Assembly (NCBI GenBank): GCA_038087875.1 | Contig: CM075988.1 | Coordinates: 20,338,001-20,402,000 of the forward strand | Origin: Malacoraja senta | Taxonomy: Eukaryota | Direction: 5' to 3' | DNA: 64,000 nt | Shown: piece by piece, positions 11,778 to 58,384 of the stretch | Layout: each line of letters starts with the position of its first letter | How positions within the stretch are numbered: position 1 is the first letter of the stretch | The notes under the pieces: generated by a model | What the model was told of the DNA's origin: nothing | What the model saw: only the letters and a program-made list of their open reading frames with translations | Database searches by the model: none | Position numbers and translations under genes: made by a program

Positions 11778-13805
11778 CTAGCCTCGGTTTAATTGATTGT
11801 TCAATAATCTTATGGCCTGGGGGATGAAGCTGTTGCAGAACCTGATTGTCCCGCTCTTCATGCTGCGGTACCTCCTCCCAGAGTTAAGCAGTATAAACAG
11901 TCCAAATTGTGGGTGTGTGGGGGCTTTGGTAATGCCCTTAGCTCTACTCAGACAGCGCTTGTACCCCATGTCCATGATGGAAGGAAGAGAAGTCCCAATG
12001 ATTTTTTCCGCTGTCCTCACCACTCTCTGAAGGCACTTCCAGTCTGCAGCTGTACAGCTGCCGCACCACGTAGAGATACAGCCGGTCATGACCGACTCAA
12101 TTGTGCTTCTGTAGAAAGTGGCGAGGATGGGAGGGTGGAGGTGTAAACTTCTCAACCTGCGGAGGAAGTACAACCGCTGATGTGCCCGTTTTGCCAGAGA
12201 TGTAATGTTAGTGGACCAGTTTAAGGTGTCCGTTATATGCACCCCCAGGAACTTGATGCTTTTCACCTGCTCCACTGCTGAGTTGTTGATGCAAAGTGAA
12301 GTGTGACTGGGCTGAATTTTCCTTCTGAAATCGACTACAATCTCCTTGGTTTTGTTGCCATTTAGGAGAAGGTTGTTCCTGCTGCACCAGCTCACCAGCT
12401 GTTCCACCTCCTCTCTATATGCCTGGTCGTCGTTATTGCGGATGAGGCCCACTACTGTTGTGTCATCCGCGTATTTGATGATATGGTTAGTGGTGGACCT
12501 GGCGACACAGTCATGTGTCATCAATGTAAAGAGCAGCGGACTCAGGACACAGCCTTGAGGGGAGCCGGTGCTCAGTTTGATGACAGAGGAGGTGTTCTTC
12601 CCCACCCGCACAGACTGGGGTCTTTCGGAAAGGAAATCCAGGATCCAGTTGCATAGTATGGTATTGAAACCTAGGGGTGCCAGTTTGCTCACCAGATGCT
12701 GGGGGATTATCGTGTTAAATGCTGAGCTGAAATCAACAAACAGCATCCGCACTTGGGTATTCTTCTCCTCCAGGTGTTGTAGGCTCAGGTGGACTGCAGA
12801 GGAGATTGCATCCTCTGTGGAGCGGTTCGGGCGATAAGCAAACTGGAACGGGTCAAAACTGGAGGGGAGTTTTGAGACCATGTGCTGCTTAATAAGCCTC
12901 TCAAAGCACTTCATTATTATTGGTGTGAGTGCTACGGGGCGGTAATCATTTAGGCAGGTTATTGTAGACTTTTTGGGAACTGGTATGATGGTAGCTGTCT
13001 TGAAACATGATGGAACAATGGCCTGGTTCAAGGAGATGTTAAAAATGTCTGTCAGAACCAGAGCCAGCTGGTCGGCACATCCCCTGAGAAGACGCCCCGG
13101 TATGTTATCCGGTCCGGCTGCCTTTCGCTGGTCAATGCCCTCCAGGATTCTGCGGACTTCAGCAGTTTCAAAAGACAGTGCCTATTCTCCCGGTTGTGGC
13201 TCTAATTTCCTCACTGTAGTGGTGTTCAGTGCTTCAAACCTGCCGAAATAATTATTTAGTTCATTTAGAAAGTCTGTGTCATCCTTACAGGACATCTGAG
13301 GGGCCTTGTAGTTAGTTATGGCCCGGATGCCTTTCCACATGTTCCTGGTGTTGGTATTATCCTGGAAGAAACCCTGGATTTTCTGTCCATGGGCGCGCTT
13401 TGCTTTCCTAATTTCGCGGTTGAGGTTGGCTCTCGCTGTTCTCAGAGCCCCCGGATCACCAGATTTAAAAGCCGCATTTCGTGCTTTCAGCATGGCACGC
13501 ACCTCTGCAGTAATCCAAGGTTTGTGGTTGGCCCGGGTTGTGATGTTCCTGATGACAATGACGTCCTCCATGCATTTCTGTATGTATCCCGACACCGACA
13601 TGGCATACTCATCCACATTGATGTTTTGGTTGTGAGTGGCTGCTGACCTGAACATGTCCCAGTCCGTGCACTCAAAACAGTCCTGGAGTGCTTCTGTAGC
13701 TCCCTCAGGCCAGACTCTAACTTGCTTCACAGTGGGTTTCTCTCTGATCAGCAGGGGCTTATAGGCTGGGATGAGCATTACAGAGAGGTGGTCAGAGGAG
13801 CCAAA
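11778..13805 (-). pseudogene. Rex1/Babar ORF (endonuclease C-terminus plus RT) with one in-frame stop
   Basis: ORFs 13182..14141 and 11778..13031 are in the same frame, separated only by TAG at 13182-13184; the frame continues [31 protein letters not shown] motifs [46 protein letters not shown]. The part of ORF 13182..14141 upstream of about 13806 is flanking DNA. Confidence 0.9.
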
Positions 13806-14149
13806 AGAGACTGCAGTTGCTGAATTCTGGACTGCCGCAATGCTGGACGAACTTGCGGGTCTGGTGTTAGGCCGAAGGGCATGTTTCCACACTGTGTGAC
13901 TGAGTGTATGAACTTGGCAGGGAATGCTGCTGACTGGTGAAGGAGAGCCTGCTGAGGGGCGCACTGAAGCTTGGTGCGACCAATGCAAAGAAAGTGGGGA
14001 AGGCGAATTGTGTAGTGCCTGTTGTCGTTGGACAGTGGTGGACTGGGCAGTGTGTAACAGTTTCTCATTGCCGCCTATTTGAAGAGGAAATAGCGGTGAT
14101 ATTGATATCTTGTAAGAGAATATATAGATTAGATGAGACAATTTAATTT

Positions 14150-34842: not shown

Positions 34843-34880
34843 TTGAGGGTCCCGACACCATCCTAAGGTTTCCATCCTTG

Positions 34881-36954
34881 GAAACACTGACTGGAAGGCG
34901 TTTGCAGCCCAGGCCACCCTTGACTCCCACACGGACATTGACTCCTATACATCATCTGTTCTGGACTTTATAAACGCCACCATCAACAGCGTCACCTCCC
35001 TCAAACAGGTGACCATATTCCCGAATCAGAAGCCATGGATGAACAGCGAGGTCAGGCTACTGCTGAAAGCACGGGACACCGCTTTCAGGTCAGGCGATGC
35101 CCGAGCCTACAGTTCATCCAGGGCTAACCTGAAGAGGGGCATCAAGAAGGCCAAGCACTGCCATAAACTCAGGATTGAGGAGCACTTCAACAACAACTCC
35201 GACCCCCGACGCATGTGGCAAGGCATCCAGGCCATCACGGACTTTAGACCCACCAACACCACCCCCACATCCAGTAACACCTCCTTCCTTGAGGAGCTCA
35301 ACCACTTCTATGGCCGTTTCGATAGGGACAATCGGCAGTTGGCCATCAAGGCGGTGCTCCCTGCCGATCACCAGCCCCTCTCACTCACCCCCTTCGACGT
35401 GTACGTGGCACTGAGTAGGACTAATGCACGTAAGGCTGCTGGCCCCGACGGCATCCCCGGGCGCGTCCTCAGGGCCTGTGCTGCGCAGCTGACAGACGTC
35501 TGGACTGACATCTTCAACCTGTCACTTGCCCAAGCAGTTGTGCCCACGTGCCTTAAATCCACCTCCATCGTGCCGGTGCCAAAACACTCCACTGCGGCAA
35601 GCCTCAACGACTTCCGCCCAGTTGCACTTACTCCCATCATCGCCAAGTGCTTCGAGAGGCTGGTCCTGGCACACCTCAAAGGCTGCCTACCCCCCACGTT
35701 GGATCCCTATCAGTTTGCCTACCGCAAGAACAGGAGTACGGAGGATGCCATCTCAACGGCACTTCACTCCGCCCTCTCCCACCTCGACAACAGAGACACT
35801 TACGTAAGAATGCTGTTCATCGATTACAGCTCAGCATTCAACACCATCATACCCTCTAAACTGATCACCAAACTCGGTGACCTGGGCATCGACCCCTCCC
35901 TCTGCAACTGGATACTGGACTTTCTAACCAACAGACCCCAGTCTGTTAGGTTAGACAAGCACACCTCTTCAACCCTCACCCTGAACACCGGCGTTCCACA
36001 GGGCTGTGTGCTGAGCCCCCTCCTCTACTCCCTCTTCACCTACGACTGCACACCTGTACATGGTACTAACACCATCATCAAGTATGCAGATGATACAACG
36101 GTGATTGGCCTCATCAGCAACAACGATGAGTCGGCCTTTAGGGAGGAGGTCCAGCTCCTAGCAGCATGGTGCGCTGACAACAACCTGGCCCTTAACTCCA
36201 AGAAGACCAAGGAGCTCATTGTAGACTTCAGGAAGTCTAGGGGCGGCATGCACACCCCCATCCACATTAACGGGAGGGAGGTGGAACGTGTTTCCAGCTT
36301 CAGGTTCCTGGGGGTCAACATCTCCGATGACCTCTCTTGGACCAACAATACCTCAACTCTGGTCAAGAAGGCTCACCAGCGTCTCTTCTTCCTGAGGAGA
36401 CTAAAGAAGGTCCATCTGTCTCCTCGGATTCTGGTGAACTTCTACCGCTGCACCATCGAGAGCATCCTTACCAACTGCATCACAGTATGGTATGGCAACT
36501 GCTCTGTCTCCGACCGGAAAGCACTGCAGAGGGTGGTGAAAATTGCCCAACGCATCACCGGTTCCTCACTCCCCACCATTGAGTCTGTCCAAAGCAAGCG
36601 TTGTCTGCGAAGGGCGCTCAGCATCGCCAAGGACTGCTCTCACCCCAACCACAGACTGTTTACCCTCCTACCATCCGGGAGGCGCTACAGGTCTCTCCGT
36701 TGCCGGACCAGCAGGTCCAGGAACAGCTTCTTCCCTGCGGCGGTTACACTACTCAACACTGTACCTCGGTGACTGCCAATCACACCCCCCCCCCGGACAC
36801 TCCTCCCACCAGGATTTATTAGATTAGATTTATTTATTTACTGCTCATATTTATGTCGCTCTTCTAGGGAGATGCTAACTGCATTTCGTTGTCTCTGTAC
36901 TGTACACTGCACAATGACAATAAAGTTGAATCTGAATCTGAATCTGAATCTGAA
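34881..36954 (+). mobile_element. Rex1/Babar-type LINE, 5'-truncated, about 2.1 kb, very young
   Basis: Uninterrupted RT frame, retained CpGs, 3' UTR stem-loop, AATAAA at 36919-36924 and (TGAATC)n tail at 36927-36954. Confidence 0.93.
34883..36772 (+). CDS. Rex1/Babar reverse transcriptase, open frame lacking the start codon and endonuclease domain
   Basis: NTDWKAF... continues into ORF 35009..36772 with [56 protein letters not shown]; no stops or frameshifts. Confidence 0.88.
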
Positions 36955-57516: not shown

Positions 57517-57728
57517 ATTTGTTGTCCATGGTGACCATGGTTAGGTGCAAAATTAAAATTAGAACTCATTGCAGACATTGAACTTTGTCTCTGGAACTGG
57601 CGCTCCACAATGCTGCGAAACTATATTCTGCATCCTGCATCTTCCCCTTCACTCTACCTGTTGTACCTTCTTCTTCTTGCGTATGGTGTGCACAGCCTAA
57701 AGTTGTAAGACAACTTGTTCTGTTTGAT

Positions 57729-57950
57729 GGTGCACAAAAATGCCGGAGAAACTCAGCGGGTGCAGCAGCATCTATGGAGCGAAGGAAATAGGCAACGTTT
57801 CGGGCCGAAACCCTTCTCCAGTCTGAAGAAGGGTTTCGGCCCGAAACGTTGCCTATTTCCTTCGCTCCATAGATGCTGCTGCACCCGCTGAGTTTCTCCG
57901 GCATTTTTGTGTACCTTCGATTTTCCAGCATCTGCAGTTCCTTCTTTAAC
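57729..57950. mobile_element. Young Penelope pseudo-LTR fold-back insertion with 16-bp TSD
   Basis: Near-perfect palindrome 57729-57915 centred at 57822; TSD ACTTGTTCTGTTTGAT at 57713-57728 and 57951-57966; CTGAAGA 57823-57829 ... GAAACGTT 57843-57850. Confidence 0.9.
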
Positions 57951-57989
57951 ACTTGTTCTGTTTGATCTTTTGTTTGTGCACGCCAGGTT

Positions 57990-58043
57990 GATTGCATTCG
58001 TTGAAACAGGGTGGACCACGTGAAGGTTGCAATCCCCCACCCC
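57990..58043 (-). ncRNA. Minimal HDV-like (CPEB3-like) self-cleaving ribozyme
   Basis: GGGGUGG-GG-GAUUGCA-ACC-UUCACGU-GGU-CCACCCU-GUUUCAA-CGAA-UGCAAUC. P1 is 7 bp with a G1.U wobble, P2 is 7 bp, P3 is 3 bp, L3 is UUCACGU, and J4/2 CGAA places the catalytic C at 58000. Confidence 0.85.
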
Positions 58044-58384
58044 ACCTGTTGTACCCGAGTTTGGCTCGATTGTATTTATGTACAGTATTATCTAACCTGA
58101 TTGGAAAGCATTCAAAACGACAGCTTTTCACAGTACCTCAGTACACGTGACAATAATAAACCTCAGCCAAACCTGAACTTGCGAAGAATCACATCCATTG
58201 CAAACGTGAATGAATGGATACAGGCAGCTTAGATCGGGAGCTGAAATGGTGTGAAATTCGCTCCATCTTTGGTATGGAAGACCCTCTTCATGGTTGCCAT
58301 CAGAATGAAAGTTTGGAATTATTATTTATGGATATTAAATGATCAATTCTGTTGCCAGTAACATACATTTAAAAATGTAGAAAA

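What the first reader, a model, noticed from the sequence alone, without database searches (positions are those of the whole stretch)
57668..58043. A 138-nt mobile element made of a minimal HDV-like ribozyme plus a structured (GAA)n tail
Seen: a perfect 12-bp TSD (ACCTGTTGTACC) brackets the element. After removing the nested 57729-57966 insert, the minus strand reads GGGGTGGGGGATTGCAACCTTCACGTGGTCCACCCTGTTTCAACGAATGCAATC-AACCTGGCGTGCACAAACAAAAGATCAAACAGAACAAGTTGTCTTACAACTTTAGGCTGTGCACACCATACGCAAGAAGAAGAA. The first 54 nt give fully paired P1 (GGGGUGG/CCACCCU, G1.U wobble), P2 (GAUUGCA/UGCAAUC) and P3 (ACC/GGU), L3 UUCACGU, and CGAA before P2', with essentially no P4. The predicted cleavage site (5' of G1, 58043) is exactly the TSD-defined 5' end. 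No tRNA-type A/B boxes are seen. Established: this is the HDV-like double-pseudoknot fold; UUCACGU followed by GU after P1' is what the mammalian CPEB3 ribozyme has; HDV-like ribozymes process the 5' ends of R2 and RTE-type retrotransposons, and R2-derived ribozyme-plus-3'-end non-autonomous elements exist in insects. Inference: a promoterless vertebrate SINE that cuts itself out of read-through transcripts and is mobilised by an RTE-like LINE. I cannot tell whether this family is already catalogued.
Basis: partly seen in the sequence, partly recalled or inferred. Interest (0 to 1): 0.95.

Follow-up and report, generated by a model that had tools for sequence, protein, structure and literature searches.

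The report
Self-cleaving-ribozyme-headed SINE family
This is one copy of a short, abundant jumping element whose first 54 bases fold like a minimal hepatitis-delta-type self-cutting RNA, which would let it free itself from host transcripts without a promoter of its own; the cutting itself is still untested.

Summary
On the minus strand, 58043..57668 is a ~138-nt retroposon flanked by a perfect 12-bp target-site duplication and split by a nested 222-nt insert with its own 16-bp duplication. It is one copy of a large family. The 1.94-Gb source genome gave 2,561 first-look candidates for the head and 1,914 for the tail. All 30 head-selected copies start at the same G. Of 29 independent tail-selected copies, 27 reach position 1, and 15 of those have an exact 7-13-nt duplication abutting G1.

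Bases 1-54 meet the features I tested for an HDV-like double pseudoknot: P1 of 7 bp with G1·U36, P2 of 7 bp, P3 of 3 bp, L3 UUCACGU, C22-G37, and CGAA before P2'. There is no P4. Rfam's best two hits are CPEB3 and an HDV ribozyme, both far below threshold. The stems show no compensatory changes because the copies are too alike.

Between subfamilies the head and the last ~32 nt are conserved while the middle diverges. The last ~35 nt plus (GAA)n match the 3' end of an RTE-like LINE. No LINE carrying the same ribozyme was found. Cleavage and transcription remain untested.

Verdict: a real element and a new variant of a known kind (ribozyme-headed non-autonomous retroposons).

The parts
57668..58043 (-). 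Whole retroposon copy (about 138 nt of element plus nested insert and one extra copy of the insert's duplication)
58044..58055 (-). Target-site duplication, 5' copy (GGTACAACAGGT on the minus strand)
57656..57667 (-). Target-site duplication, 3' copy
57990..58043 (-). 54-nt HDV-like ribozyme head. P1 58037-58043 with 58008-58014; J1/2 58035-58036; P2 58028-58034 with 57990-57996; P3 58025-58027 with 58015-58017; L3 58018-58024; G37-U38 58006-58007; 5-nt linker in place of P4 58001-58005; CGAA 57997-58000
58000..58000 (-). C44, predicted catalytic cytosine (position equivalent to C75 of the HDV ribozyme)
   Evidence: J4/2 feature C-R-R-A from a passage of PMC6326823
57951..57989 (-). Body, element positions 55-93, including the 5' strand (57975-57985) of the long-range stem
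57729..57950 (-). Nested 222-nt snap-back (inverted-dimer) copy of an unrelated ~133-nt repeat. Its 16-bp duplication is at 57951-57966 and 57713-57728. Not part of the family.
57668..57728 (-). Body and tail, element positions 78-138: hairpin 57700-57716, 3' strand of the long-range stem 57684-57694
57668..57707 (-). Stretch shared with the 3' end of an RTE-like LINE (last codons, TAG stop, short 3' UTR), ending in (GAA)n at about 57668-57678

Best explanation
The element is a copy of a young, high-copy, non-autonomous non-LTR retroposon with three modules.

1. A 54-nt head folds as a minimal, P4-less HDV-like self-cleaving ribozyme.
2. A variable middle region forms a stem-loop domain together with part of the tail.
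3. A ~35-nt tail plus (GAA)n is shared with an RTE-like LINE.

Proposed cycle:
- A copy lying in a transcribed region is co-transcribed with its host RNA (inferred).
- The head folds and cleaves just 5' of G1, which sets the exact 5' end (inferred from fold and from uniform 5' ends).
- The RTE-like reverse transcriptase recognises the shared 3' end and copies the RNA by target-primed reverse transcription up to G1. This yields full-length insertions with 7-13-bp duplications. The insertion products are shown; the enzyme is inferred.

Where the head came from is open. It may derive from the partner LINE's own 5' end or from another source, as in hybrid SIDEs.
For: Family and ends:
- There are 2,561 first-look candidates for bases 1-77 and 1,914 for bases 78-138. 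In each search 40 were scored, at 97-100% identity.
- 30 of 30 head-selected loci start at the same position. That is 25 independent insertions, because 6 loci carry one insertion amplified with a duplicated flank.
- Of 29 independent tail-selected copies, 27 reach position 1 and 2 are truncated, at positions 12 and 34.
- Of those 27, 15 have an exact 7-13-nt duplication ending at the base before G1, 8 have one ending 1-3 nt earlier, and 4 have none by exact match.
- In contigs of 4 other coded organisms, cover of the element ends at the same two bases.

Fold:
- All 18 proposed pairs are standard in the majority sequence.
- U20, C22, G25 and C-R-R-A are present. This feature list comes from a passage of PMC6326823.
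- The two best Rfam hits on the 161-nt stretch are both HDV-like: CPEB3, E = 0.04, and HDV-F-prausnitzii, E = 1.3.
- Chance rate of my descriptor is about 6e-7 per base.
- P1 is in the centroid of the unconstrained fold.

Selection:
- Between subfamily majority sequences the head differs at 2-3 of 54 columns, the body at 9-33 of 54 and the tail at 0-2 of 29. The head was not used to select the B and C copies.
- In contigs of 4 organisms, the only head sites with 10% or more variant depth are 32 (A>G, keeps U5 paired as U.G), 42 (linker) and 45 (J4/2 second base).

No Pol III head: no tRNA, no A or B box within 2 mismatches inside the element, and no other RNA family.

Partner LINE:
- L095 carries a LINE C-terminus ending ...LDLQL, then TAG, then the same 35 nt at 97% identity.
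- The genome holds 1,520 candidates for that C-terminus.
- Public relatives are single ORFs of about 1,000 aa with endonuclease and reverse-transcriptase domains on 3.2-3.4-kb contigs.

[quoted passage not shown] Passages of PMC6765202 say RTE and baggins elements carry HDV-like ribozymes and lack their own promoters.
Against: - There is no experimental or RNA evidence. No run on record as RNA holds the element.
- Rfam scores are less than half of the gathering thresholds, and the whole-window gathering search found nothing.
- No pair shows a compensatory change, and paired cells do not exceed shuffles: 96.9% observed against 97.0%.
- P4 is absent and P1.1 is reduced to one C-G pair plus a U.U.
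- My descriptor was written after seeing the sequence.
- Uniform 5' ends would also follow from a fixed transcription start.
- The LINE junction that matches the tail was found at only 4 places at up to 3 mismatches.
- No LINE copy among the 138 scored lies next to any of the 41 places where the ribozyme is followed by non-family sequence.
- Ten distant RTE relatives from metagenome contigs showed no HDV-like motif upstream of their ORFs.
- Subfamily C has CUAA instead of C-R-R-A.
Confidence: 0.7

Rival explanations
1. Ordinary SINE with an unrecognised internal promoter. The 5' end is a transcription start, and the HDV-like fold is inactive, a relic, or serves another role such as stability or reverse-transcriptase contact.
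For: No cleavage data exist. P4 is absent, P1.1 is weak and Rfam scores are sub-threshold. There is no covariation. Precise 5' ends are also typical of Pol III SINEs.
Against: No tRNA, 5S or 7SL likeness and no A or B box were found. A complete HDV-like descriptor starting exactly at base 1 has a chance rate of about 6e-7 per base. The head varies between subfamilies and organisms only at sites expected to tolerate change.
Confidence: 0.17
2. Same mechanism, specific origin: the element is a short internally deleted RTE-like LINE (SIDE type), so head and tail both come from one autonomous element.
For: The tail equals the LINE's last codons, stop and 3' UTR. Passages of PMC6765202 report that RTE elements carry 5' HDV-like ribozymes. 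R2 SIDEs are built this way (abstract of PMC3414825).
Against: Ribozyme bases 28-54 followed by non-family sequence occur at only 41 places, with no recurrent LINE-like context. None of these places lies beside any of the 138 scored LINE N-terminus matches. Element bases 55-81 preceded by non-family sequence occur at only 8 places, all internally deleted copies. A LINE head differing by more than 3 of 28 bases would have been missed, and I could not read any LINE 5' end.
Confidence: 0.35
3. Chance resemblance: the pairings are accidental in a G-rich 5' end.
For: The unconstrained minimum-free-energy fold of bases 1-54 is no better than shuffles (z = 0.67). Pseudoknots are not modelled in that fold.
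Against: See the descriptor rate, the two HDV-like Rfam best hits, and conservation of the head against a diverging body.
Confidence: 0.03

Closest known systems
R2 SIDEs and R2/R1 hybrid SIDEs of Drosophila (abstract of PMC3414825)
   Same: Short non-autonomous elements made of a 5' HDV-like ribozyme joined to the 3' end of a LINE, which supplies the reverse transcriptase. The hybrids show that head and tail can come from different elements.
   Different: SIDEs are rare and insert site-specifically in rDNA, where they are co-transcribed with rRNA. Here the family has thousands of dispersed copies, variable duplications and an RTE-like partner. The ribozyme has no P4, and its source is unknown.
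L1Tc/NARTc/SIDER elements of trypanosomatids with the Pr77 HDV-like ribozyme (abstract of PMC4035085; listings)
   Same: Abundant dispersed autonomous and non-autonomous retroposons that all begin with an HDV-like ribozyme, which releases them from co-transcripts.
   Different: In those elements the 77-nt head is also an internal promoter and is shared with the autonomous LINE. The host is a protist with polycistronic transcription. No sequence likeness was tested.
HDV-like ribozymes at the 5' ends of RTE and baggins LINEs (passages of review PMC6765202; the primary paper, Ruminski et al. 2011, was not held)
   Same: Promoterless elements processed out of read-through transcripts. The LINE clade matches the likely partner here.
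   Different: Those ribozymes sit on autonomous LINEs of insects. Here the ribozyme heads a 138-nt non-coding element, and I could not show it on any LINE.
Mammalian CPEB3 ribozyme, Rfam RF00622
   Same: It is the best Rfam hit. L3 (UUCACGU) is identical, as are the GGGG start, CCCUGU after P1 and CGAAU before P2'.
   Different: The score is 16.5 bits against a threshold of 35. CPEB3 is a single-copy intronic element with a P4 helix. The P2 and P3 sequences are unrelated.
Minimal HDV-like ribozymes lacking P4, and theta ribozymes (passage of PMC6326823 citing Riccitelli 2014; abstract of PMC10879173)
   Same: A P4-less core of similar size.
   Different: Those come from microbiome and phage sequences, with theta ribozymes next to tRNAs. 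None is described at the head of a retroposon in the texts I saw.
Schistosome SINE-like elements with hammerhead ribozymes (passage of PMC6765202)
   Same: A SINE-sized repeat that carries a self-cleaving ribozyme.
   Different: The ribozyme class differs (hammerhead). Those elements are transcribed by Pol III and function in tandem arrays.

Membership tests
HDV-like self-cleaving ribozymes | Nested double pseudoknot: strand order P1-P2-P3-L3-P3'-P1'-(P1.1)-J4/2-P2' | tested here: met
   P1 is 7 bp, P2 7 bp and P3 3 bp, all standard pairs.
HDV-like self-cleaving ribozymes | G1 at the cleavage site paired to U (G.U closing P1) | tested here: met
   G1.U36 is found in 35 of 40 distinct copies.
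HDV-like self-cleaving ribozymes | L3 with U...C..G (U20, C22, G25) and P1.1 to the bases after P1' | tested here: met
   L3 is UUCACGU. C22-G37 is kept in 39 of 40 distinct copies. The second P1.1 pair is U.U. The feature list is from a passage of PMC6326823.
HDV-like self-cleaving ribozymes | J4/2 C-R-R-A with the catalytic C just before P2' | tested here: met
   CGAA at 44-47 in subfamilies A and B. Subfamily C has CUAA.
HDV-like self-cleaving ribozymes | P4 helix | tested here: not met
   Only 5 nt (UUCAA or UUCGA) lie between P1.1 and C44. P4-less natural examples are reported in a passage of PMC6326823.
HDV-like self-cleaving ribozymes | Reaches the gathering score of an Rfam HDV-like model | tested here: not met
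   RF00622 scores 16.5 against 35 and RF02682 scores 14.5 against 44. The window has no hit at gathering level.
HDV-like self-cleaving ribozymes | Covariation that supports the helices | tested here: inconclusive
   0 of 18 pairs change on both sides. The only common change is U5-A32 to U5.G32, in 12 of 40 rows. Mean column identity is 95%.
HDV-like self-cleaving ribozymes | Site-specific Mg2+-dependent self-cleavage | not testable with these tools
   This needs a bench assay.
Classical SINE (Pol III head derived from tRNA, 7SL or 5S) | Short, non-coding, dispersed, with target-site duplications and a LINE-derived 3' end | tested here: met
Classical SINE (Pol III head derived from tRNA, 7SL or 5S) | Internal Pol III promoter or small-RNA-derived head | tested here: not met
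   No tRNA. No A or B box within 2 mismatches inside the element. Only HDV-like Rfam hits.
SIDE-type element (internally deleted LINE) | 3' end identical to that of an autonomous LINE | tested here: met
   35 nt at 97% identity to L095. The junction occurs at 4 places.
SIDE-type element (internally deleted LINE) | 5' ribozyme shared with that LINE | tested here: inconclusive
   No such LINE turned up among 41 places and 138 scored N-terminus matches. No LINE 5' end could be read.
RTE clade, for the partner LINE | Single ORF of about 1,000 aa with AP-endonuclease and RT domains, element of about 3.3 kb, very short 3' UTR ending in short tandem repeats | tested here: met
   Public relatives P0002 and others carry PF03372, PF14529 and PF00078 on 3.2-3.4-kb contigs. 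In L095 the stop codon lies about 25 nt before (GAA)n. The defining list is recalled. The style of the Rex3 tail comes from passages of PMC6274825.
RTE clade, for the partner LINE | Phylogenetic placement of the RT within RTE | not tested
   No tree with named reference LINEs was built.

The most novel reading that the evidence does not exclude
The 54-nt head is a free-standing, portable ribozyme module that was not inherited from the partner LINE. On this reading it is the nearest non-mammalian relative of the CPEB3 ribozyme, which would then be a domesticated copy of such a retroposon head. Thousands of potentially active self-cleavage sites would also be scattered through this genome's transcripts.
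Probability: 0.12. Interest if true: 0.85.

Novelty: new variant of a known kind. Interest (0 to 1): 0.62.

Why it matters
Ribozyme-headed non-autonomous retroposons are known from insect rDNA (SIDEs) and from trypanosomatids. I found no paper describing one in a vertebrate-type genome, or one built on a P4-less core. The searches were full-text. Repbase and Dfam could not be consulted.

If the head cleaves, four things follow:
- It would be a SINE that needs no Pol III promoter and has still reached thousands of copies.
- It would be a natural 54-nt HDV-like ribozyme, among the smallest in a eukaryote.
- Sense-strand copies in introns and UTRs would be built-in RNA cut sites, which predicts an orientation bias in genes.
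- Its CPEB3-like core would give a testable lead on where that mammalian ribozyme came from.

Tried and rejected
**LINE sharing the element's interior.** A pattern of 8 'not-family' letters followed by element bases 55-81 found 8 places, all internally deleted copies.

**LINE sharing the hairpin.** The same kind of pattern over bases 90-116 found 38 places with varied upstream sequence. These were not followed up because loci could no longer be cut.

**Recurrent foreign contexts before the tail.**
- AGGGCTAT and similar contexts are a MITE nested at a TTA (L077).
- TGTTTTGT is subfamily C.
- Only L095 was a LINE.

**'AATC|TCCCACC' context (3 places).** This is an inverted rearrangement of the element, not a LINE.

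**LINE 5' end.** This could not be read. The question stays open.

**Distant RTE relatives from metagenome contigs (80 loci).**
- My descriptor gave only chance-like hits, none upstream of an ORF on its strand.
- Rfam at E up to 1 found no HDV-like hit on the 10 loci that cover the N-terminus.

**RNA evidence.** No RNA holder was listed. All four runs laid were contigs, which cannot show RNA ends.

**Mini-ORF.** In subfamily A an ATG at 47-49 is in frame with the TAG at 107-109. In subfamily B an earlier stop breaks the frame, so I treat this as chance (reading).

**Rex3 tail.** My recollection that Rex3 ends in (GAA)n was wrong in detail. The review gives GCG(GAA)2(GATG)n.

**Earlier findings of this scan.** Nothing was returned.

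**Papers not held.** Ruminski 2011 and Webb 2009. Their content is cited only through the review.

Full report
**1. Observation**

On the minus strand the window reads GGTACAACAGGT | GGGGTGGGGGATTGCAACC ... GCAAGAAGAAGAA | GGTACAACAGGT. The 12-mer occurs exactly twice in the window, at 57656-57667 and 58044-58055.

Inside the element lies a 222-nt insert (57729-57950). It is flanked by a 16-bp direct repeat, ATCAAACAGAACAAGT, at 57951-57966 and 57713-57728. Intact copies elsewhere in the genome have exactly that structure.

**2. It is a family**

The window lies in a 1.94-Gb assembly of 6,182 contigs.
- Bases 1-77 gave 2,561 first-look candidates. 40 were scored, all 97-100% identical.
- Bases 78-138 gave 1,914 candidates. 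40 were scored, 98-100% identical.
- These counts are lower bounds by the tool's own statement.

All 30 head-selected loci begin at the same G, with unrelated upstream sequence. Six of them (L025-L030) are one insertion carried in a ~3.7-kb tandem repeat, and L001 is the window itself.

The 29 independent tail-selected loci were not chosen by their 5' part. Their 5' ends break down as follows:

| Class | Copies |
|---|---|
| Reach position 1 | 27 of 29 |
| 5'-truncated (at positions 12 and 34) | 2 of 29 |
| Exact 7-13-nt duplication ending at the base before G1 | 15 of 27 |
| Duplication ending 1-3 nt earlier | 8 of 27 |
| No duplication by exact matching | 4 of 27 |

No copy shares sequence upstream of G1.

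Runs of at least four other coded organisms hold the element. In their contigs, cover stops at the same two end bases. These are contigs, so they say nothing about RNA.

**3. The head**

Bases 1-54 give:
- P1: 1-7 with 30-36, closed by G1.U36
- J1/2: 8-9
- P2: 10-16 with 48-54
- P3: 17-19 with 27-29
- L3: UUCACGU
- C22-G37 as a one-pair P1.1, followed by U.U
- a 5-nt linker where P4 would be
- C44-G-A-A directly before P2'

These match the conserved features listed in a passage of PMC6326823: U and G of L3, the C-G pair of P1.1, and C-R-R-A in J4/2 with C as the general acid. [quoted passage not shown]

Rfam at gathering thresholds finds nothing in the window. At permissive thresholds on 161 nt, the two best hits are CPEB3_ribozyme (16.5 bits, E = 0.04, threshold 35) and HDV-F-prausnitzii (14.5 bits, E = 1.3, threshold 44), both aligned end to end. 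The element is therefore not a member by Rfam's criteria. Both models spend many positions on the missing P4.

I wrote a strict descriptor after seeing the sequence. Within the window it finds this site with P2 = 7, plus two other sites that reach only the 5-bp P2 minimum. In 5.12 Mb of composition-matched random sequence it finds 25 sites, 3 of them with P2 of 7 bp or more. A hit of this quality that starts exactly on the first base of a retroposon is very unlikely by chance.

**4. Covariation and conservation**

I aligned 43 copies not selected by their head, of which 40 are distinct. Seven further copies were dropped because indels broke the 54-nt register. Results:
- None of the 18 pairs changes on both sides.
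- Paired cells are 96.9%, against 97.0% in shuffles.
- The only frequent stem change is U5-A32 to U5.G32, in 12 of 40 rows.

With 95% mean column identity, and with most copies decaying neutrally, this test can neither support nor refute the fold.

More telling is the comparison of subfamilies:

| Module | Columns differing between majority sequences of A, B and C |
|---|---|
| Head (1-54) | 2-3 of 54 |
| Body (55-106) | 9-33 of 54 |
| Tail (107-135) | 0-2 of 29 |

There are three caveats.
- The tail was the selection handle for these copies.
- The B set was selected for changes at 99-106.
- Only 2 copies represent C.

In contigs of four organisms the head varies at 10% or more only at three positions:
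- 32 (A>G), which keeps the pair
- 42, in the linker
- 45, the second base of J4/2

The body varies at about a dozen positions. This pattern is what selection on the source copies for an intact head and tail would give.

**5. No Pol III head**

ARAGORN finds no tRNA in or beside the element. A-box and B-box consensus motifs, recalled from memory, have no match within 2 mismatches inside it. No other RNA family scores.

**6. Body and tail**

Bases 55-135 fold into an 11-bp long-range stem (59-69 with 112-122) that encloses a hairpin (90-106). The energy is -23.6 kcal/mol, z = -3.9, and 1 of 200 shuffles folds as well. No covariation supports this fold either.

**7. Partner LINE**

Patterns that demand non-family sequence before the tail turned up L095. 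It is a 5'-truncated LINE 3' end whose frame reads ...CGHPDQTIPHIMNDC...AALAWMSTLDLQL. This is followed by the position of a TAG stop and then the same 35 nt as the element's end, at 97% identity.
- The peptide has 1,520 candidates in the genome. 150 were scored, at 65-85% identity. Most have a TAG near residue 55, and open frames reach at most 300 aa.
- The exact LINE-to-tail junction occurs at only 4 places at up to 3 mismatches.
- Public relatives are single ORFs of about 1,000 aa with endonuclease (PF03372, PF14529) and reverse-transcriptase (PF00078) domains on contigs of 3.2-3.4 kb. One fragment, P0001, reads through into a tail that translates as AVHAIRKKK, which is compatible with the same 3' end.

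Together with the very short 3' UTR ending in a trinucleotide repeat, this is the RTE architecture. That definition is recalled, and no tree was built. Rex3 of teleosts has a similar style of tail (passages of PMC6274825).

**8. Does the LINE carry the ribozyme?**

This is not shown.
- Ribozyme bases 28-54 followed by non-family sequence occur at 41 places. The contexts are heterogeneous and mostly internal deletions.
- The one recurrent context I could read is an inverted rearrangement of the element.
- None of the 41 places lies near any of the 138 scored matches to an RTE N-terminus.
- That search does show several RTE-like families in the genome. Some have open frames of 986-1,014 aa, so active enzymes are plausible.
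- A LINE head more than about 10% different from the element's would have escaped these searches, and I could not read any LINE 5' end.
- Ten distant RTE relatives from metagenome contigs showed no HDV-like motif.

**9. Mechanism**

The best-supported reading is a promoterless retroposon.
- It is released from host co-transcripts by self-cleavage 5' of G1 (inferred).
- It is copied by an RTE-like enzyme that recognises the shared 3' end (inferred from the shared tail).
- This gives full-length insertions with duplications (shown).

The main rival is an unrecognised promoter with an inactive fold. A cleavage assay and 5'-end chemistry of the cellular RNA would separate the two.

**10. Comparison with what is known**

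The kind is known:
- R2 SIDEs and R2/R1 hybrid SIDEs (abstract of PMC3414825)
- the Pr77-headed LINE and SINE-like elements of trypanosomatids (abstract of PMC4035085)
- HDV-like ribozymes on promoterless RTE and baggins LINEs, with the review's remark that some non-autonomous SINEs use hammerhead or HDV-like ribozymes (passages of PMC6765202)

What differs here:
- a P4-less 54-nt core
- an L3 identical to that of the mammalian CPEB3 ribozyme
- thousands of dispersed, very similar copies
- no evidence that the head is shared with the partner LINE

Five full-text searches found no description of such a family in fishes or other vertebrates. Repeat databases could not be checked, so the family may be catalogued without its ribozyme being noticed. 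I did not test the host's taxon.

**11. Verdict**

The element is real and ordinary in how it inserts. Its head is unusual: a new variant of a known kind. Confidence in the full mechanism is 0.7, and interest is 0.62. The interest score is held back by the lack of any cleavage or RNA evidence and by existing precedents for the principle.

Noticed in passing
window 57729-57950; L044:1365-1497; L046:1256-1500: The nested insert is a snap-back (inverted-dimer) copy of a ~133-nt repeat whose head is GTTWAAGAAGGAACTGCAGATGCTGG. The same junction with the retroposon, after its base 93, occurs at 29 places genome-wide, in both A-type and B-type copies. L044 carries the repeat at the same site in the opposite orientation with a 14-bp duplication. 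This suggests a strong insertion-site preference.
   Followed up: partly
L077:1529-1820 (minus strand); contexts listed: A MITE with terminal inverted repeats (CCCTGTCCCAC...) is nested at the TTA just before the tail of a retroposon copy. Related upstream contexts (AGGCCCTT, AGGGCTAT, AGGGGCCT) recur at the same site in at least a dozen copies.
   Followed up: partly
L025-L030 (contigs C4771, C3140, C4980, C3721): One retroposon insertion has been amplified as part of a tandem repeat with periods of about 2.84 and 3.72 kb on unplaced contigs. All copies have the same flank.
   Followed up: no
L099:1-90: A rearranged copy: reverse complement of bases 57-85, then bases 9-54, then the reverse complement of bases 1-9. 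The 'AATC|TCCCACC' junction occurs at 3 places in the genome, as if made by template switching.
   Followed up: partly
genome coordinates (e.g. C8:936861, C4:35488862, C4794:29568): There are several distinct RTE-like LINE families. Some have open frames of 986-1,014 aa, so they may still be active. They are 35-38% identical to the N-terminus of P0002.
   Followed up: no
window 11778-14147 (-) and 34847-36772 (+): Long open frames (467, 321 and 641 aa) of another LINE type, with reverse-transcriptase motifs. They are only about 24% identical to the RTE-like protein.
   Followed up: no
L010:1284-1412: A neighbouring repeat with a B-box-like GGTTCGATCC has very high contig depth in all four runs laid. 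It is probably a tRNA-derived SINE.
   Followed up: no
L117:551-596: A histone 3' stem-loop-like hit (26.7 bits, threshold 34) lies just upstream of an RTE-like ORF on a metagenome contig.
   Followed up: no
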